From Bacteroidia bacterium (GTDB taxonomy: Bacteria > Bacteroidota > Bacteroidia > Bacteroidales > BM523): DNA of 34,206 bases. This document shows positions 1,524-31,515 of the stretch, in pieces; position 1 is the stretch's first letter, and the number at the start of each line of letters is the position of its first letter. Position numbers and translations under genes: made by a program. The stretch is from positions 1 to 34,206 of the forward strand of contig JACQWN010000071.1 in NCBI GenBank assembly GCA_016209245.1, written 5' to 3'. The notes beneath the pieces are model-generated. The model was not told where the DNA came from. It saw only the letters and a program-made list of their open reading frames with translations, and did no database searches.

Positions 1524-3965
1524 TTAAATCTTTAGCCCCATCACCGTTATATCATCAGTCTGCTCAAAAGAATGTCCTGTTTCATGATTGATAAATGACA
1601 TCCAATTTATTATAGCCGTTTCAATGATTTCTTTCTGTACATTCATTGGTTTATCAGCTACAGATAACAGTAATTCCTTTAATCTTGCCGCTTTGAATTT
1701 CTTGCCTTTTTCGCCACCAAACTGGTCGGCGAATCCGTCTGACATCAGATATAAAGTATCTCCTTTATGTAATTCTATAATATGTTCGGTGAAATCTTCC
1801 ATTTTTACATGAATAGCAACAGGCATTTTATCGCCTTTGATCTCTTTTAATTCAAACGTTTGCTTTGCAAACGTTTGAATTAAAAATAAAGGGTTGTTCG
1901 CTCCTGCAAATTGTAACCGAATGGTAGAGACGTACGGCTGTACGTCTATACCATTCGGTTTCTCAATCGCACACAAAGCAATATCCATCCCGTCTTTAAC
2001 ACTTAACTCATTTGACATATTGTCATCGCTAATATCCCGTTGATGTAACGATTCAACAATATATTTCCTTGTTTGATTTAATACTTCGCTTGTCTTTGTT
2101 ACCTCCTCCTTCTTGACAATTTCATTTAAAATGGAGATACATAACATGCTCAAAAATGCACCCGGTACGCCATGTCCGGTGCAATCGCCCACACAGAAGA
2201 TAATCCATTTGTTGACCGTTGTACCCCAATAAAAATCACCGGAAACAACATCTTTGGGCTTGAAAAGCACAAAGTAATCTATAAATGTTTCACATTTGGC
2301 AAATGTGAAACATTTAACAAGGTCAGGCAGCATCGCCTGTTGTATCCTTTTTGCATAATTAATACTATCAGTTAATTCTTTATGGATAAATGTTATTTCA
2401 TCCTTTTGTCTTGTTACCAAATCCCTTTGCGCCTGAATTTCGTCACGCTGGTGTGATATCTTTTCATTTTTTTGGCTTATTTCAATATTTTGCTTGGCAA
2501 GTAAAATATTCGCTTTTTTCTTGGCATGATATTGCCTGTAAAGCAGGACAGAAAAAATAAATATCATAATGAAGCCAAGTACAAAAGAATAAATCATAAT
2601 TCTTTGTTTCTTCATGGCTTCTTCTTTTCTGGCAAGCTCGGCCGACTGAAGCGCTTTTTCTTTATTAAGATTATCAACTTCGAGCTGTTTTTTTTCAGTT
2701 TGATATCTTGCTTCCATTACTTCTATCTGCTTGTTTTTTTGGATATTATACAGACTATCTTTTGCGTTTGTATATAAAATATGGTATTCAAGCGATTTTT
2801 TATAATCGCCCAACCCTTGATATGCTTTCGAAAGGGAAAAGTATCCAAATTTTATCTCGTTCAAAGCATTTATTGATTGTGCTAATTGAAGTGAACTTTC
2901 AGCGCAATCAACCGCTTTGTCATAATAAATTTTCCCATCGCTTTGATTCGAAGATTTATCTCCTGCGGTATTATATAACTCGGCCATATTACCCAGCACA
3001 ATAGCTTCCCCCTGCCTGTCACCTGTTTTTTTAAATAAATTATATGCCTGTGTGTATGTTTCCGTCGCCTTTTCAAAGTTTCCCTGATAAAAATAAATCA
3101 TACCGATATTAGCATAGCACATAGCAGCATCTTTTTCATCGCCTATTTCTTTATCTATTTCAAACGCCTTCAAATAGTGCTCAACAGCCGAATTATATTC
3201 ACCCTGCATCTGTATTATTAATCCAAGGTTATTATAACAATATGCCACACCTTTTTTATTACCCAGCTCTTCATTTATTTTGAGCGCTTTTTTGAAATAA
3301 TCTGCCGCCTTTGTCAAATTCCCCTGCTTTTGGTGAATACCACCGATATTGTTATAACACAATGCTATTCCTTTTTTATCCCCGAACTCCTCATATATAT
3401 TCAGCGATTTTTGATAGTTTTCGATTGCCATAGGGTATTCTCCCTGCATAAAATACACATTTCCAATATTTGAAAAACAATTTGCAACCCCCTTTTTGTC
3501 ATTCAGAGCGATATATTTTTTTAAGGCATGCTGAAATGATGAAATAGCATCGGGATAATTTCTCTGATTATAAAACACAAGGCCGGTGTTAAATGTGCAT
3601 GCTGCAATTCCATTTTTATCACTTATTTCATTATATATCCGCTTTGATTGTTCATAAAAATCAACAGCTTCACGGTACTCGTGCCTGATATCATAAATTA
3701 TCCCTATAGATTTTAAAGACAGCGCCATATAATGCTTATTTTCTGCCTTCTTTGCTATATTATATGCCTTTTGGTAATAAAATAAACTGCTATCCTGATT
3801 TGTTGCACGGTAGAGATTTCCAATATCAAGCAATGCCTTTATTTGTACTGTATCCTGATTTGTGGTTTTTAACAGAGATTTCAGGCTGTCTATTTTTGTT
3901 TGTCCCGATACACTAAATGTAAATAATATAAGGAAGAATATTTTTATTAATCTAAGTATAAACAT
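1524..3965 (-). CDS. TPR-repeat, single-pass membrane SpoIIE/PP2C-family serine phosphatase (intact paralog)
   Basis: 813-aa ORF with a signal-like N-terminus, about 9 TPR-like repeats, TM segment IMIYSFVLGFIMIFIFSVLLY and a coiled coil. PP2C motifs follow: SGDFYW, GDCTGHGVPGAF, DGMDIALC, SDGFADQFGG, TDDITVMG. Confidence 0.85.
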   Translation of the reverse strand: MFILRLIKIFFLILFTFSVSGQTKIDSLKSLLKTTNQDTVQIKALLDIGNLYRATNQDSSLFYYQKAYNIAKKAENKHYMALSLKSIGIIYDIRHEYREAVDFYEQSKRIYNEISDKNGIAACTFNTGLVFYNQRNYPDAISSFQHALKKYIALNDKKGVANCFSNIGNVYFMQGEYPMAIENYQKSLNIYEEFGDKKGIALCYNNIGGIHQKQGNLTKAADYFKKALKINEELGNKKGVAYCYNNLGLIIQMQGEYNSAVEHYLKAFEIDKEIGDEKDAAMCYANIGMIYFYQGNFEKATETYTQAYNLFKKTGDRQGEAIVLGNMAELYNTAGDKSSNQSDGKIYYDKAVDCAESSLQLAQSINALNEIKFGYFSLSKAYQGLGDYKKSLEYHILYTNAKDSLYNIQKNKQIEVMEARYQTEKKQLEVDNLNKEKALQSAELARKEEAMKKQRIMIYSFVLGFIMIFIFSVLLYRQYHAKKKANILLAKQNIEISQKNEKISHQRDEIQAQRDLVTRQKDEITFIHKELTDSINYAKRIQQAMLPDLVKCFTFAKCETFIDYFVLFKPKDVVSGDFYWGTTVNKWIIFCVGDCTGHGVPGAFLSMLCISILNEIVKKEEVTKTSEVLNQTRKYIVESLHQRDISDDNMSNELSVKDGMDIALCAIEKPNGIDVQPYVSTIRLQFAGANNPLFLIQTFAKQTFELKEIKGDKMPVAIHVKMEDFTEHIIELHKGDTLYLMSDGFADQFGGEKGKKFKAARLKELLLSVADKPMNVQKEIIETAIINWMSFINHETGHSFEQTDDITVMGLKI

Positions 3966-28839: not shown

Positions 28840-29541
28840 TTAAATTTTGAATCCTACAATCAATACATCGTCAACCTGTTCATAAGATTGGTCTGTTTCA
28901 GGATTAATAAATGACTTCCATTGCTCAAATTTATTATTCAGAATTTCTCTTTGCTCGAACATCGGCTTTTGAGATATTGAGCATAAAATTTTTTTTAAGC
29001 CCTGAAGTTTTATTTTTTCACCGTTTTCCCCTCCGAACTGGTCGGCATAACCGTCGGAAAACATATAAAAAGTATCACTGTCGGAATAAGTTAATTCATG
29101 CAGGGTAAATGGTTTCATATTATTAGAGATGCTGATTGGCATTTTATCCGCCTTCACTTCAATTAATTGCTTTTCGCAATTTTTCATGTTTGTTTCGGCG
29201 GATACATCGCCTTTTATTTCCTTTAATAACGCTTGACCCGCAAGGTCGCCTGAATCAGCGTTATTGCCTGCGCCTGCGCTACTGACTTTATTACAGTGAC
29301 CTTGCGGGACAGGCGTTATTAAATATAAAGAATTGTTAGCTCCTGCAAACTTTAATAATTTTTTTTCTTTTTCAATGGAGCATATACTCATAACTATTCC
29401 GTCTTTGGCTTCTTCCTCGTTTCCTGTTTGGTGTAAAGCTTTAATTATATTTTCACGCATATTATTCAGCACGGCATCAGGGCTTGTGATATTATTTTTG
29501 ATTACTATGTCATTTAAAAAGGCAATGCCGAGCATGCTCAT
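28840..29541 (-). CDS. C-terminal fragment of a disrupted TPR/SpoIIE (PP2C) phosphatase gene
   Basis: The listed ORF starts at an internal Met. The frame is open upstream to about 29637 and encodes ...TSATIVAVADCTGHGIPGAFMSMLG, with no start codon before the DCTGHG motif. Also MFSDGYADQFGG and VDDVLIVGFKI. Confidence 0.7.
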   Translation of the reverse strand: MSMLGIAFLNDIVIKNNITSPDAVLNNMRENIIKALHQTGNEEEAKDGIVMSICSIEKEKKLLKFAGANNSLYLITPVPQGHCNKVSSAGAGNNADSGDLAGQALLKEIKGDVSAETNMKNCEKQLIEVKADKMPISISNNMKPFTLHELTYSDSDTFYMFSDGYADQFGGENGEKIKLQGLKKILCSISQKPMFEQREILNNKFEQWKSFINPETDQSYEQVDDVLIVGFKI

Positions 29542-29589
29542 AAAAGCGCCGGGAATGCCATGTCCGGTACAGTCGGCAACGGCAACTAT

Positions 29590-29718
29590 AGTCGCACTAG
29601 TGTCTTGACAATTTAAAAATGAAACATTGAAAACAATTTTTTAATCCAGACCTCACAGGTTTCTAAAACCTGTGAGGTCTTAAAATTAAATTGTCGCAAC
29701 ACTAGTCCGGGTGCGACT
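29590..29718. repeat. Imperfect palindromic insertion carrying in-frame stops, inside the PP2C domain
   Basis: Outer inverted repeats 29590..29614 and 29688..29718. Central perfect 14-bp hairpin AGACCTCACAGGTT (29648..29661) / AACCTGTGAGGTCT (29667..29680). Direct repeat TATAGTCGCAC (29587..29597) / TATGAGTCGCAC (29751..29762), 165 nt apart. Confidence 0.7.
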
Positions 29719-31515
29719 TTGAGAAGTACCTTGATTATCGGCAAGACTGCTATGAGTCGCACCCTGACTATCGGCACTATTAACGGTGGTAATCCAATAA
29801 AAATCGCCGCTGACAATATCTTTTGGAAGATGCAATACAAAGCTGAAAGGCAGCAATCTTGAAATTTCCTGCATTGGCGTGAGAACTGCCGATTGGATAT
29901 ATCTTGCATATTCAATGCTTTCAGTAATTTCCCTGTTTTGCTCAATTATTTTATCATGCTGCTTTTTTAAATCTTTATTTGCAATTATAAGCTGCTCGGC
30001 CTGAGTTTGAATTTCTTCTTTTTGTTGCATAATTTCAGCATTGGCAAATTCTAATTGTGTGTTCTTTTTTTCAATTTCCGTTTTTTGGCGGGCAAGTAAT
30101 TTATTGGCTTTTTTCTTTTGCAATATCAGGCGGTAAAGAAAACCTGAAAATATAATAACCAGCAACAAGCCGCCAACCACAAATAAAATAACAATTCGCT
30201 GCTTTTTATTTTCCGCTTCTTTTTTTGCTATGTCTGCCTTTTTTAAAGCATTATCTTTATTAAGCATTTCAATTTCATGCTGTTTTTTTTCATTCTGATA
30301 TTTTGCCTCCATTTCATGGTAAGTGCGGGAGCTCTCCTCGTTATATATACTGTCGTACATTATTAAAAACAAATGTTCATATTTATAGGCGTTCTCAAAA
30401 TCGGATATTGCTGCATAGCAATCCGAAAGGTTATTATAAGCATCTTTAATCTCACTTTTTGCTCCCACTTCTTTAGAGTAGCTTAAGCTTTTTTCCAGGG
30501 TTTCGATTGCCTTATTGTATTTTTTCATTTTAGTATAAACCATTCCCATATTATTATAACATGATGCCAACCCCTGCCGGTCGTTCCTCGCTTCATTATG
30601 ACTGATAGCTTCCTCAAAATTTTTGATCGCCTCTTCATATTTACCCGTATTTTTATTTATTAATCCTATATTATTCAAAGTCCTGGCCAGCCCTGGCTTA
30701 TCGTTTCTTTTTCTGTTAATTTCCAATGCTTTTTTATATTTTTCAATGGCTTTGTCATATTCATTTATTTTGAAATAAATACTGCCCAGGTTATTTAATC
30801 CGTATGCGACACCCACCGTATCATGTATCTTATCGCAAAGTTCAATTGCCTGTTCCAGGTACTCGATGCCTTGCGGATAGTTTTTCATATAAATAGAGAT
30901 AATTCCGATATTGTTGACACATTTGACGGTTCTTTGCGTATCGCCGATTTGTTCCGATTGCTTAATTGATTTTTGGAAATAATCAATCGCCTTGGCATAA
31001 TCGCCTTTCCGGTAATATATACCGCCGATATTGTTATATACATCGGCTATACTTGGATGATTTTCTGTCTTAATATAATTCTCCAATGATTGAAGACTGT
31101 ATTTTAAGGCATCATCATAAGAACCGGTTTCATCTTTAATCATGCTTATATATAACAGGCATTTACCTTTATAATTTAAGCAGGTTTTCTTTTCAATAGC
31201 GTTTTTTGAGTCTTCAGCTATCTTTTCTGCAAGCTCGTATGCCTGATTATAATATTCAATCGCCTTTTCAGGTTCTTGCTTTTCATGCAAATCGGCTATT
31301 TCGATTAAAATTTTTATTTTATTAGTAACTGCCTGCATTTTCTTCGAAATTGTTAAAAGACTGTCTATTTTTTTTTGCTGGCTTTGGCCGGATATTGTAG
31401 CTACGATGGATATGATTAAAATAAAAGCTGTAAGAAACTTTTGAAAGTATCTATTATAATTCATTATGTTATATAATTTGGTAGCCATACATTTATCTAT
31501 TAAGCATACATTCAA
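29686..31515 (-). CDS. N-terminal fragment of the disrupted TPR/SpoIIE phosphatase gene (TPR repeats, TM, coiled coil, start of PP2C domain)
   Basis: TPR-like repeats, TM VILFVVGGLLLVIIFSGFLY, coiled coil, then LPKDIVSGDFYWITTVN followed by insertion-derived residues and a stop at 29686. The likely true start is M18 (MNYNRYFQKFLTAFILIISIVATISG) at 31464. Confidence 0.75.
   Translation of the reverse strand: MNVCLIDKCMATKLYNIMNYNRYFQKFLTAFILIISIVATISGQSQQKKIDSLLTISKKMQAVTNKIKILIEIADLHEKQEPEKAIEYYNQAYELAEKIAEDSKNAIEKKTCLNYKGKCLLYISMIKDETGSYDDALKYSLQSLENYIKTENHPSIADVYNNIGGIYYRKGDYAKAIDYFQKSIKQSEQIGDTQRTVKCVNNIGIISIYMKNYPQGIEYLEQAIELCDKIHDTVGVAYGLNNLGSIYFKINEYDKAIEKYKKALEINRKRNDKPGLARTLNNIGLINKNTGKYEEAIKNFEEAISHNEARNDRQGLASCYNNMGMVYTKMKKYNKAIETLEKSLSYSKEVGAKSEIKDAYNNLSDCYAAISDFENAYKYEHLFLIMYDSIYNEESSRTYHEMEAKYQNEKKQHEIEMLNKDNALKKADIAKKEAENKKQRIVILFVVGGLLLVIIFSGFLYRLILQKKKANKLLARQKTEIEKKNTQLEFANAEIMQQKEEIQTQAEQLIIANKDLKKQHDKIIEQNREITESIEYARYIQSAVLTPMQEISRLLPFSFVLHLPKDIVSGDFYWITTVNSADSQGATHSSLADNQGTSQSRTRTSVATI

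What the first reader, a model, noticed from the sequence alone, without database searches (positions are those of the whole stretch)
29155..29316. Two further inverted-repeat-bounded, stop-free insertions within the same PP2C domain (RPE-like in-frame palindromes)
Aligned by eye to the intact paralog, the C-terminal fragment has two extra segments. (a) About 26 aa (PVPQGHCNKVSSAGAGNNADSGDLAGQ) is encoded by a locally GC-rich stretch bounded by a perfect 11-bp inverted repeat, CCCGCAAGGTC (29237..29247) / GACCTTGCGGG (29298..29308), extendable to about 20 bp imperfect. (b) About 20 aa (VSAETNMKNCEKQLIEVKAD) corresponds to exactly 60 nt bounded by TATCCGCC (29155..29162) / GGCGGATA (29207..29214). 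Insert (a) and the stop-bearing insertion upstream both encode N(N/S)ADS.G-like peptides, hinting at a related origin. Palindromic elements that insert in frame into coding sequence are classically known from Rickettsia (RPEs). Three in one Bacteroidota gene would be unusual.
Basis: partly seen in the sequence, partly recalled or inferred. Interest (0 to 1): 0.6.

Follow-up and report, generated by a model that had tools for sequence, protein, structure and literature searches.

The report
In-frame palindromic repeats inside genes
One of the two extra segments in this broken phosphatase gene is a copy of a small GC-rich inverted-repeat element that sits, almost always in the same reading frame, inside some forty places in genes of this uncultured Bacteroidota bacterium, much like the palindromic elements known from Rickettsia; the other segment is a hairpin-forming piece shared with only one sister gene.

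Summary
The coordinates of (b) are 10 nt off: it lies at 29145-29204.

Insert (a), 29233-29310 on the minus strand, is one copy of a 72-78-nt repeat with invariant 13-nt terminal inverted repeats (GACCCGCAAGGTC / GACCTTGCGGGTC).
- nhmmer finds 42 loci on 30 contigs of this 5.67-Mb, 35.5% GC genome.
- Of 36 copies found by pattern, 25 lie in ORFs of at least 200 aa and are read in one phase, as DPQGH-x17-GDLAGQ.
- Hosts are unrelated genes: PP2C paralogs, HflX, an ABC transporter, CHAT, NACHT-WD40.
- No copy turned up in 40 relatives or in two public contig collections.
- The RPE-like reading of (a) is therefore supported. This is a new, shorter variant with a strong phase bias and no target-site duplication, and it often sits at the centre of other palindromes.

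Insert (b) is a stop-free 60-nt hairpin (z -6.2). It has only one other copy, 91% identical, at the same site of a non-sister paralog, where the repeats are decayed. It is not a dispersed element. It is either a conversion patch between paralogs or a low-copy palindrome.

The suggested kinship between (a) and the upstream stop-bearing insertion is not supported.

The same beta-hairpin carries DNA palindromes in many paralogs, including the window's intact one.

The parts
29233..29310 (-). Insert (a): one copy of the 72-78-nt terminal-inverted-repeat element, read as VPQGHCNKVSSAGAGNNADSGDLAGQ. The left arm carries one change (GAC to GTC, D to V).
   Evidence: Pattern and frame listing; nhmmer hit 29309-29234, E 7e-17; 92% identical over 100 nt to the copy on C14, 89% to C20, 90% to C620.
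29222..29323 (.). The full 102-nt inverted repeat around (a): 26-nt arms 29222-29247 / 29298-29323. The outer 11 nt (TTTAATAACGC / GCGTTATTAAA) encode LYLITP and QALLK. They are probably an older short palindrome in whose centre the element sits.
   Evidence: the repeat finder I1, 92% complementary; fold -48.7 kcal/mol, z -6.76; flank complementarity; a comparable perfect palindrome at the same site of the intact paralog.
29205..29231 (-). ALLKEIKGD: a second-strand coding piece, 26 of 27 nt identical to the copy in paralog C14. In the model it lies in the disordered loop.
   Evidence: 96% over 27 nt; AF2 pLDDT below 50 for residues 114-128.
29145..29204 (-). Insert (b): 60 nt, VSAETNMKNCEKQLIEVKAD. 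Terminal 8-bp inverted repeat TATCCGCC / GGCGGATA plus an inner AATTGC / GCAATT. Its 3' half supplies the beta-strand that pairs with LYLI in the model.
   Evidence: It is an exact 60-nt extra relative to C14. The only other copy is C390:12103-12160, 91% identical. AF2: helix 130-141, strand 142-145.
28840..29541 (-). C-terminal fragment of the host gene (the PP2C / SpoIIE phosphatase domain lacking its first strands).
   Evidence: ORF list; PF07228 E 3.5e-4, below the curated cut-off; 38% identity to the intact paralog; the model matches the SiaA-PP2C structure 6k4e at TM 0.66.
29686..31515 (-). N-terminal fragment of the host gene: TPR repeats, a membrane segment, a coiled coil and the start of the PP2C domain.
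29596..29706 (.). The stop-bearing 110-nt MITE that splits the gene. It belongs to a different repeat family and is context only.
   Evidence: 28 copies of 100 nt or more on 27 contigs, 25 of them at 95% identity or more.
29703..29770 (.). A further hairpin-forming in-frame stretch upstream (SADSQGATHSSLADNQGTSQSRTRTS). It is unique in the genome and not related to (a).
   Evidence: the repeat finder I3; fold z -3.2, 1 of 200 shuffles as good; no similarity to (a); no other genomic hit for that part of the query.
1845..1885 (-). The same hairpin site in the intact paralog: a perfect 19-bp-stem DNA palindrome encoding FLIQTFAKQTFELK.
   Evidence: Fold -28.5 kcal/mol, z -5.89, 0 of 200 shuffles as good; translation.

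Best explanation
Insert (a) is a copy of a lineage-restricted, non-autonomous repeat. The unit is 72 nt (78 nt with the full arms), has about 54% GC in a 35.5% GC genome, carries invariant 13-nt terminal inverted repeats, and shows no target-site duplication. One orientation and phase is stop-free and encodes a hydrophilic 26-residue peptide (DPQGH...GDLAGQ). Copies in that phase survive inside genes as disordered surface loops.

Shown here:
- The family exists and is dispersed in unrelated genes.
- Nearly all copies share one phase.
- Paralogs and orthologs without the element exist.
- It was not found in the other genomes searched.
- In this gene it lies in the turn of a beta-hairpin of the PP2C fold.

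Inferred:
- The element moves or moved as DNA, mobilised in trans by an enzyme I could not identify.
- It prefers the centre of existing DNA palindromes, which would explain why the naturally palindromic hairpin-coding site of the PP2C family is hit again and again.
- Within that roughly 87-member family it also spreads by short-patch gene conversion. This copy, which shares its flanks with the C14 and C20 copies, probably arrived that way.

Insert (b) is not a member of that family or of any dispersed family. It is most likely a 60-80-nt patch exchanged between paralogs, which left the second beta-strand duplicated. Less likely, it is a separate low-copy palindromic insertion.
For: Family:
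- The 11-mer CCCGCAAGGTC occurs 39 times, against about 1 expected for the 10-mer.
- Arm pairs lie at a fixed 68-nt spacing.
- The genome search gave 29 matches on each strand in G000 and 0 for the reversed control pattern.
- nhmmer found 42 distinct loci at E <= 1e-5 on 30 contigs.

Phase:
- Of 36 pattern copies, 25 lie in ORFs of at least 200 aa in the DPQG...DLAG phase. Four lie in long ORFs in another or a mixed phase, and 7 in short or no ORFs.
- A random site, strand and phase falls in such a frame 13.7% of the time, binomial P 3.5e-14.
- The reverse orientation carries a stop in the same phase in most copies.

DNA-level rather than peptide-level constraint:
- The 13 arm positions pair in 26-27 of 27 distinct copies, third codon positions included.
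- The arms use codons that are rare here: GAC 27%, CCG 24%, CAC 21%, GCG 11%.
- Three copies keep the arms but are read in another phase, as PTRKV...SDLAG.

Unrelated hosts: HflX, ABC transporter, NACHT-WD40 (3 copies), CHAT, propeller regulators.

Sites without the element:
- HflX in all 9 relatives aligned lacks it.
- 15-16 of the 72 aligned PP2C domains carry it at this hairpin; the others do not.
- Carriers are scattered on the tree; for example, the sister of C620 is empty with support 0.987.
- An AU test rejects one clade for the four carriers of the (a) subtype, p 0.013.

Youth relative to the host gene: (a) is 92% identical to the C14 copy, while the host domain aligns to other paralogs only in conserved patches at about 66-73%.

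Structure: residues 92-129 are coil with pLDDT below 50, between strands LYLI (88-91) and LIEV (142-145). The fold is PP2C.

Palindrome targeting:
- Flanks next to the arms are inverted-complementary for 3 nt or more in 11 of 30 copies, against about 0.5 expected.
- Two more copies have 11-18-nt complementarity after a 1-2-nt offset.
- There are element-in-element nests on C324 and C556.
- The intact paralog has a perfect palindrome at this site.

Restriction to this genome: 0 of 40 relatives by pattern and by BLAST, apart from one 19-nt chance hit. The 3 genome-collection and 6 metagenome hits are all in 53-73% GC DNA and do not read as the peptide.

(b): as listed under parts.
Against: - No mobilising enzyme was found. 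Six Y1-transposase matches and one IS110-family match exist, but none has the arms within its locus. All unpaired arms lie in degenerate or composite copies, so no longer parent element is visible.
- No target-site duplication in any of 30 copies, which departs from classical MITEs.
- In HflX and CHAT the element seems to replace about 15-19 native loop residues rather than simply add to them. A plain insertion does not predict this.
- 29 of 36 copies lie in long ORFs, the same share as random sites (80.9%). Yet 25 of those 29 are in one phase. Random insertion followed by selection should leave relatively more intergenic copies, so the spread mechanism is not explained.
- The interior of the element shows no mirror covariation: 272 of 567 pairs against 266.7 for shuffled partners. 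It is therefore an element with terminal repeats, not a conserved full palindrome.
- The tree group for the AU test was named after I had seen a first tree.
- For (b), the local shuffle tests (1 of 500; z -6.2) mean a palindromic origin cannot be dismissed.
- The genome is a 726-contig assembly from a metagenome. Intergenic copies could be under-assembled, although a 72-nt repeat is shorter than a read.
Confidence: 0.8

Rival explanations
1. Both segments are ordinary lineage-specific variable loops of the SpoIIE/PP2C family, shaped by protein-level evolution. The inverted repeats are incidental.
For: The hairpin is a length-variable site across the family. Among the 120 best database homologs, 65 have the minimal 23-residue span and 55 are longer, up to 88 residues. 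Within the genome, loop lengths range from 26 to 87 residues.
Against: The (a) sequence recurs in unrelated genes with arms invariant at the DNA level and written in rare codons. Some copies are read in other phases. Among the 120 database homologs it occurs only in this genome's own four proteins. Carriers are not one clade. Loops fall into two classes by fold z-score, at most -3.1 or at least -1.3.
Confidence: 0.05
2. (b) is a second, low-copy palindromic in-frame insertion, either mobile or made de novo by fold-back or template-switch copying of the adjoining KADKMP codons. This is what the first reader proposed.
For: It is an exact 60-nt extra relative to C14, with identical flanks. It has an 8-bp terminal and a 6-bp inner inverted repeat, z -6.19. 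It is 91% identical to the C390 copy while the neighbouring sequence is about 73%. Three of the five differences from C390 fall on paired positions, and all of them pair in this copy. Other paralogs carry unique or low-copy palindromes at this same site: C124, C81, C588, and C570 with C244. The C81 insert is an inverted copy of its own RNEL codons.
Against: There are only two copies, both at the same site of the same gene family. The C390 copy does not fold (loop z +1.28). Its 3' half encodes the family's consensus strand and is modelled as the native strand with pLDDT about 90, so part of it is not extra at all.
Confidence: 0.3
3. The element family spreads only by recombination or gene conversion between homologous coding sequences, never by transposition. 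That would automatically keep the phase.
For: There is strong phase bias and no target-site duplication. The same site is occupied in many PP2C paralogs, and flanks are shared between the C633, C14, C20 and C160 copies. In the CHAT genes, C555 and C606 carry it at homologous sites.
Against: Copies sit in single-copy or unrelated genes with no shared flanks: HflX, the ABC transporter, three different sites in one NACHT-WD40 gene, and a membrane protein in another phase.
Confidence: 0.15
4. The repeats are an assembly or binning artefact.
For: The genome is a fragmented assembly of 726 contigs with 2.4% estimated contamination.
Against: Copies lie in frame inside long ORFs on 30 contigs, with subfamily variation. 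Contigs from four public runs of one study cover (a) and (b) continuously with their flanks, for example 29144-29601 without a difference. These runs may be the source data, so this is not independent support.
Confidence: 0.01

Closest known systems
Rickettsia palindromic elements (RPE-1 to RPE-10; Ogata et al. 2000, as described in passages of PMC10969869 and PMC1779305)
   Same: Both are short hairpin-forming interspersed repeats with an open phase, found in frame inside unrelated genes and encoding a conserved peptide. They are tolerated in the protein, proliferate in a lineage-specific way, and have no known transposase.
   Different: This family is 72-78 nt, against 100-150 bp. The host is a free-living groundwater Bacteroidota bacterium, not Rickettsiales. 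RPEs are described as abundant in both intergenic and coding DNA (PMC1779305), with about half of RPE copies in ORFs (PMC10969869); here 29 of 36 copies are in long ORFs and 25 of those are in one phase. Here only the 13-nt termini are invariant while interiors differ by subfamily. Here copies often sit at the centre of other palindromes and recur at one hairpin of an expanded gene family. Sequence similarity to RPEs was not tested because no RPE sequence was at hand.
Bacterial MITEs (Correia, ERIC, RUP, BOX, Coxiella QMITE1/2; reviews PMC10969869 and PMC3184786, paper PMC5896051, passages read)
   Same: Small, non-autonomous, with terminal inverted repeats, multicopy, and sometimes fused in frame to ORFs.
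   Different: No target-site duplication in 30 copies. No parent IS with the same ends. Smaller than most MITEs. GC-rich in an AT-rich genome. Internal to genes rather than intergenic or at gene ends (the QMITEs overlap mostly the 3' ends of genes, PMC5896051).
REP/BIME repeats with RAYT (Y1) transposases, and IS110/IS1111-type insertion into REP palindromes (PMC3733652 abstract only; PMC3184786 and PMC5896051 passages)
   Same: Hairpin DNA acts as the unit and as the target. Insertion into palindromes occurs without a classical duplication. This is the best mechanistic analogy for the nesting seen here.
   Different: REPs are extragenic, 20-40 nt, and tagged GTAG or CGTC. The arms here are not. 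The Y1 and IS110-family genes of this genome have no arm sequence nearby.
SpoIIE / RsbU-type PP2C phosphatases with TPR sensor parts (host gene)
   Same: The domain order is the same as in the intact paralog, and the fold match is SiaA-PP2C 6k4e, SpoIIE 5ucg, RsbU 3ke6.
   Different: This copy is split by a MITE with stops and carries about 50 extra residues in one hairpin turn.

Membership tests
RPE-like in-frame palindromic repeats (functional class) | Multicopy interspersed repeat within one genome | tested here: met
   42 nhmmer loci on 30 contigs; 29 pattern matches on each strand against 0 for the control.
RPE-like in-frame palindromic repeats (functional class) | Hairpin-forming, with inverted-repeat ends | tested here: met
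   The 13-nt arms pair in 26-27 of 27 distinct copies. This copy folds at z -6.76. The interior is not conserved as a palindrome.
RPE-like in-frame palindromic repeats (functional class) | Inserted in frame, without stops, inside unrelated protein-coding genes | tested here: met
   25 of 36 copies are in ORFs of at least 200 aa in one phase. Hosts come from at least six protein families.
RPE-like in-frame palindromic repeats (functional class) | Orthologues or paralogs without the element exist (it is an insertion, not ancestral sequence) | tested here: met
   HflX lacks it in 9 of 9 relatives aligned. 56-57 of the 72 PP2C domains are without it at the hairpin. Sister paralogs are empty.
RPE-like in-frame palindromic repeats (functional class) | The encoded peptide lies in a surface loop compatible with the fold | tested here: met
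   In the AF2 model, residues 92-129 are coil with pLDDT below 50, in the turn between two strands of the PP2C sandwich. This was tested for this one copy only, and it is a prediction.
Rickettsia palindromic elements proper (RPE-1 to RPE-10) | Sequence homology to an RPE family; Rickettsiales host; length 100-150 bp | tested here: not met
   The length is 72-78 nt. The host has T9SS-tailed proteins and Bacteroidota relatives. Homology to RPE sequences was not tested, as none was at hand. Rfam has no match on (a) or (b).
Classical MITE | Terminal inverted repeats | tested here: met
Classical MITE | Target-site duplication flanking each copy | tested here: not met
   No direct repeat at the flanks in any of 30 copies.
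Classical MITE | A related autonomous IS with the same ends | tested here: not met
   All unpaired arms lie in degenerate copies. The Y1 and IS110 loci lack the arms. Other transposase families were not searched.
REP/BIME | Extragenic, 20-40 nt, GTAG or CGTC head, with an associated RAYT flanked by REPs | tested here: not met
   The copies are intragenic. The arms start CTGACC. The Y1 genes are not flanked by the arms. The head-motif criterion comes from the abstract of PMC3733652.
SpoIIE/PP2C phosphatase (host gene) | PF07228 domain and PP2C fold | tested here: met
   The fragment scores 21 bits, below the 25-bit cut-off, because it is cut and interrupted. The paralog scores 56.4 bits. The fold match to 6k4e is E 1e-10, TM 0.66. 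Whether the broken gene is active was not testable.

The most novel reading that the evidence does not exclude
The family is not a transposon that lands at random and is then filtered by selection. It is an element, or a templated repair process, that integrates at the apex of DNA hairpins inside coding sequence in a way that is coupled to the reading phase. It replaces the native loop codons with a 24-36-residue disordered cassette. In effect this would be a natural loop-swapping system that has remodelled a sixth to a fifth of an expanded phosphatase family and has even reached a housekeeping GTPase.

The evidence does not exclude this reading:
- 25 of the 29 genic copies are in one phase, although at least one other phase is open in both orientations in most copies.
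- The genic share equals that of random sites.
- There is no target-site duplication.
- Native loops appear replaced in HflX and CHAT.
- Copies are nested in palindromes.
Probability: 0.2. Interest if true: 0.85.

Novelty: new variant of a known kind. Interest (0 to 1): 0.62.

Why it matters
In-frame selfish palindromes have essentially one textbook case, Rickettsia. The 2024 MITE review I read in passages (PMC10969869) only calls it conceivable that similar protein remodelling occurs in other prokaryotes, and the word stem 'Bacteroid' does not occur in it. My full-text search for palindromic element, in-frame, protein-coding and Bacteroidetes returned nothing relevant among the 15 papers listed of 67.

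This is a second, independent example, in a free-living Bacteroidota bacterium. It offers features that make mechanism questions testable:
- The unit is very small, with sharply defined 13-nt ends.
- It has several subfamilies.
- It shows an extreme phase bias.
- It nests in other palindromes.
- About 87 paralogous target genes give filled and empty versions of the same site in one genome.

It also warns annotators that odd low-complexity loops in such genomes can be repeat DNA. And it shows how a regulatory phosphatase family can diversify one surface hairpin.

Tried and rejected
- Search for the element elsewhere. The pattern with at most 1 mismatch per arm in 40 relatives gave 0 matches. 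BLAST of the 102-nt unit in the same 40 gave one 19-nt chance hit. The exact pattern in genome contigs gave 3 loci and in metagenome contigs 6 loci, all in 53-73% GC DNA and unrelated in translation. The tools warn that records of the window's own genome, or of one very near it, may be left out.
- Mobiliser. PF01797 (Y1) gave 6 matches and PF01548 (IS110) gave 1. None has the arms (up to 3 mismatches) in its locus, and there are no matching hairpins beside the three best Y1 genes. Other transposase families were not searched.
- Empty outer palindrome. A loose regex for AATAACGC...GCGTTATT returned mostly noise, and the only relevant hits were the filled copies.
- Interior covariation of the element: none.
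- Kinship of (a) with the upstream stretch: none.
- Rfam: nothing on (a) or (b). There were five sub-threshold chance matches on the MITE.
- Public runs. Four DNA runs of one groundwater study hold the stretch as contigs, and no RNA holder is listed. When laid, no joint skips exactly (a) or (b). The joints that were listed have short sides or low depth and probably come from paralogs. These runs may be the assembly's own source.
- Earlier notes of this scan on the same genome concern adhesin genes and did not bear on this finding.
- Not run: the search of protein representatives with the element peptide (a 26-residue unit is too short to reach significance in 1.84 billion sequences), complex prediction, and a second structure.
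Full report
**The locus.** The finding lies in a minus-strand gene for a TPR, membrane, coiled-coil and SpoIIE/PP2C regulator. The gene is split into an N part (29686-31515) and a C part (28840-29541) by a stop-bearing insertion. An intact paralog of 813 aa lies at 1524-3965. The window is contig C633 of a 5.67-Mb assembly with 726 contigs, 35.5% GC, and an estimated 94% completeness and 2.4% contamination.

**Checking the observation.**
- The arms of (a) are at the stated coordinates. They extend to 26 nt at 92% complementarity, 29222-29247 / 29298-29323.
The 8-mers are at 29145-29152 and 29197-29204 and bound exactly 60 nt.
- Both stretches exceed chance locally. A perfect repeat as long as the observed one appeared in 1 of 500 dinucleotide shuffles for each. 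The folds give z -6.76 for (a) and z -6.19 for (b), with 0 of 200 shuffles as good in either case.

**Insert (a) belongs to a dispersed repeat family.**
- The 11-mer of its arm occurs 39 times in the genome, against roughly 1 expected for the 10-mer. Left and right arms pair at a fixed spacing of 68 nt, with some at 104 nt.
- A pattern search gives 29 matches on each strand in this genome and 0 for the reversed control.
- Aligned in register, 28 copies give the consensus GACCCGCAAGGTCAY, about 46 variable nt, then RYGACCTTGCGGGTC(A/G)G.
- A profile built from them finds 42 distinct loci at E <= 1e-5 on 30 contigs.
- The 13 arm positions pair in 26-27 of 27 distinct copies. The interior falls into subfamilies and shows no mirror covariation: 272 of 567 pairs against 266.7 with shuffled partners.
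- Mean GC of the unit is 54% against 35.5% for the genome. The arm codons are minority codons here: GAC 27%, CCG 24%, CAC 21%, GCG 11%.

**Where the copies sit.**
- Of 36 copies found by pattern (72-nt, 108-nt and two odd spacings), 25 lie in ORFs of at least 200 aa and are read in one phase, as DPQGH-x17-GDLAGQ.
- Four lie in long ORFs in another or a mixed phase. These are two CHAT genes and a paralog read as PTRKV...SDLAG, and one membrane protein.
- Seven lie in short or no ORFs, some of them cut by contig ends.
- The opposite orientation carries a stop in the same phase in most copies.
- Hosts include PP2C paralogs, the GTPase HflX, an ABC transporter, a NACHT-WD40 protein with three copies, CHAT-domain proteins, and propeller-type regulators.
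- A random site, strand and phase falls in a 200-aa open frame 13.7% of the time, so 25 of 36 has binomial P 3.5e-14. By contrast, 29 of 36 in any long ORF equals the random share of 80.9%.
- The phase bias is therefore far stronger than the genic bias. Random insertion plus selection does not predict that pattern.

**The copies are insertions, not ancestral sequence.**
- In HflX, all 9 relatives aligned have a 17-19-residue loop where this genome has 39 residues containing the element and an extra partial arm.
- In CHAT paralogs, filled and unfilled versions of the same site exist. In both gene families the element seems to replace native loop residues.
- tblastn with the paralog's domain hits 87 contigs. 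In an alignment of 72 near-complete domains, 15-16 carry the element in one beta-hairpin, between LYLI and ELIEIKGDKM. The basal state is a tight 27-residue span.
- On a tree built without the loop columns, carriers are scattered. C620's sister C593 is empty (support 0.987), and the sister of the window's gene, C124, carries a different insert (0.968).
- The four genes with the same subtype as (a) (C633, C14, C20, C620) are rejected as one clade: lnL difference 95.1, p-AU 0.013. The caveat is that I named the group after seeing the first tree.
- (a) is 92%, 89% and 90% identical to the C14, C20 and C620 copies. The host domain has no close paralog: the best protein identity for its first part is 59%, and DNA alignments reach 66-73% only in conserved patches.
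- With C14 and C20 the similarity continues into the flanks, GANNxLYxITP on one side and ALLKEIKGD on the other. This particular copy was therefore probably brought in, or homogenised, by short-patch conversion between paralogs.

**Palindromes within palindromes.**
- None of 30 copies has a direct repeat at its flanks.
- Instead, the bases next to the 15-nt arms are inverted-complementary for 3 nt or more in 11 of 30 copies, against about 0.5 expected.
- Two further copies, including the window's, have 11-18 nt of complementarity after a 1-2-nt offset.
- C324 and C556 show an element inside an element.
- The same hairpin site in the window's intact paralog is a perfect 19-bp-stem palindrome encoding FLIQTFAKQTFELK (z -5.89). 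A related 25-nt palindrome (QTVAxQPF) recurs in several paralogs.
- Across the 34 paralog loops of 75 nt or more, fold z-scores split into two groups: 20 at -3.1 or below and 14 between -1.3 and +2.0.
- The low group contains all element carriers except C55, whose degenerate double copy scores -1.27.
- It also contains unique or low-copy palindromes: C124, C588, C30, C49, C570 and C81.
- The C81 insert is an inverted copy of its own adjoining RNEL codons.
- This site is therefore a general hot spot for palindromic DNA. I infer, without having shown it, that the element prefers hairpin apices.

**Insert (b).**
- Relative to C14 it is an exact 60-nt extra, between GGCGAT and AAAATGCC.
- Its only other copy is in paralog C390 (11823-12629), at the same site and 91% identical over 58 nt. 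The neighbouring sequence there is about 73% identical, and the two genes are not sisters.
- In C390 the repeats are decayed (6 of 8 and 5 of 6 positions) and the loop does not fold (z +1.28).
- The similar tract also covers the preceding LKEIKGD codons, which overlap the C14-like tract. The gene therefore looks like a mosaic joined in that shared motif.
- In the AlphaFold model (mean pLDDT 77.9, built from an alignment of 21 paralogs), LYLI is strand 88-91. Residues 92-129, which are (a) plus ALLKEIKGD, are coil with pLDDT mostly below 50. The 5' half of (b) is a helix (130-141, pLDDT about 67). The 3' half (LIEV, 142-145) is the strand that pairs back.
- Part of (b) is thus the functional second strand. 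The model's best structural matches are PP2C domains: SiaA 6k4e at TM 0.66, then SpoIIE, RsbU and tPphA.
- I rate a paralog-exchange patch as somewhat more likely than a separate palindromic insertion, but the fold statistics keep the latter alive.

**Family-wide and taxon-wide view.**
- Of the 120 best homologs of the C14 domain among 5.8 billion proteins, 65 have the minimal hairpin span and 55 are longer.
- Only four carry DPQG or DLQG...DLAG, and all four are this genome's own proteins. The nearest foreign protein is 58% identical.
- The element was not found in 40 relatives (one in the same family, 39 in the same order), either by pattern or by BLAST.
- The exact pattern in the genome and metagenome contig collections hit only GC-rich chance sequences.
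- Contigs of four public runs from one groundwater study cover (a) and (b) continuously. They may be the source data.

**Mechanism and comparison.**
- The behaviour matches Rickettsia palindromic elements as described in the passages I read: 100-150 bp, in intergenic and coding DNA, in-frame fusions, a conserved peptide, and compatibility with protein folds (PMC10969869, PMC1779305).
- It differs in size, host phylum, the near-exclusive single-phase genic location, ends-only conservation, and nesting in palindromes.
- It fails two MITE criteria that I tested: target-site duplication and a parent IS. It also fails the REP criteria.
- No mobilising enzyme was identified.
- The most likely working model has four steps. 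A trans-mobilised hairpin-end element inserts at palindromic sites. It persists only in the one hydrophilic open phase. It is then copied among paralogs by conversion. It is carried as a disordered loop.
- The steps from 'inserts at palindromic sites' onward are inferences.

**Verdict.** (a) is a real, non-chance, RPE-like in-frame repeat of a new family. (b) is a real hairpin-forming segment but not a dispersed element. The link to the upstream MITE is not supported. The gene carries four hairpin-forming extras in one domain: 29703-29770, the MITE, (a) and (b).

Noticed in passing
window 29596-29706: The stop-bearing insertion that splits the gene is a 110-nt MITE with 28 copies of 100 nt or more on 27 contigs, 25 of them at 95% identity or more. 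One contig of run X2 joins 29594 to 29700 (depth 3.4, short side 23 nt). This is a weak hint of an allele without the MITE.
   Followed up: partly
window 29703-29770: Another in-frame hairpin-forming stretch (25-nt arms, 80% complementary; fold z -3.2) lies just upstream of the MITE and encodes SADSQGATHSSLADNQGTSQSRTRTS. No other copy was seen in the genome, and it has no similarity to (a).
   Followed up: partly
window 1845-1885: The intact paralog has a perfect 41-nt DNA palindrome (19-bp stem) that encodes the turn of the same beta-hairpin, FLIQTFAKQTFELK. A protein hairpin written on a DNA hairpin.
   Followed up: yes
G000 contigs C124:6960-7040, C588:13990-14094, C81:3353-3415, C570:5524-5589 with C244:21154-21219, C30:628-672: Other PP2C paralogs carry different palindromic in-frame inserts at the same hairpin. 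C124 has a unique 76-nt near-perfect palindrome. C588 has a 66-nt perfect one with weaker relatives elsewhere. The C81 insert is an inverted copy of its own RNEL codons. The C570 insert has a 95% copy on C244. The C30 hairpin has 46 genomic hits.
   Followed up: partly
G000 C591:13445-14722 (L016): The housekeeping GTPase HflX carries the element plus an extra partial arm (39 residues) in place of a 17-19-residue loop that is present in all 9 relatives aligned.
   Followed up: yes
whole genome G000: The SpoIIE/PP2C family is hugely expanded: tblastn with one domain hits 87 contigs, and 72 near-complete domains could be aligned.
   Followed up: partly
G000 C160:268-1371, C437 and C336: Further GC-rich in-frame pieces recur, such as PSTPLRTSLAGQ and LPSSLGEGLGVR. 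They suggest additional repeat families inside genes of this genome.
   Followed up: no
G000 C274:4628-4833 and C398:7055-7364: Tandem or clustered arrays of the element lie in short ORFs: three and a half units on C274 and at least two units plus loose arms on C398. These are the best candidates for non-genic or source copies.
   Followed up: no
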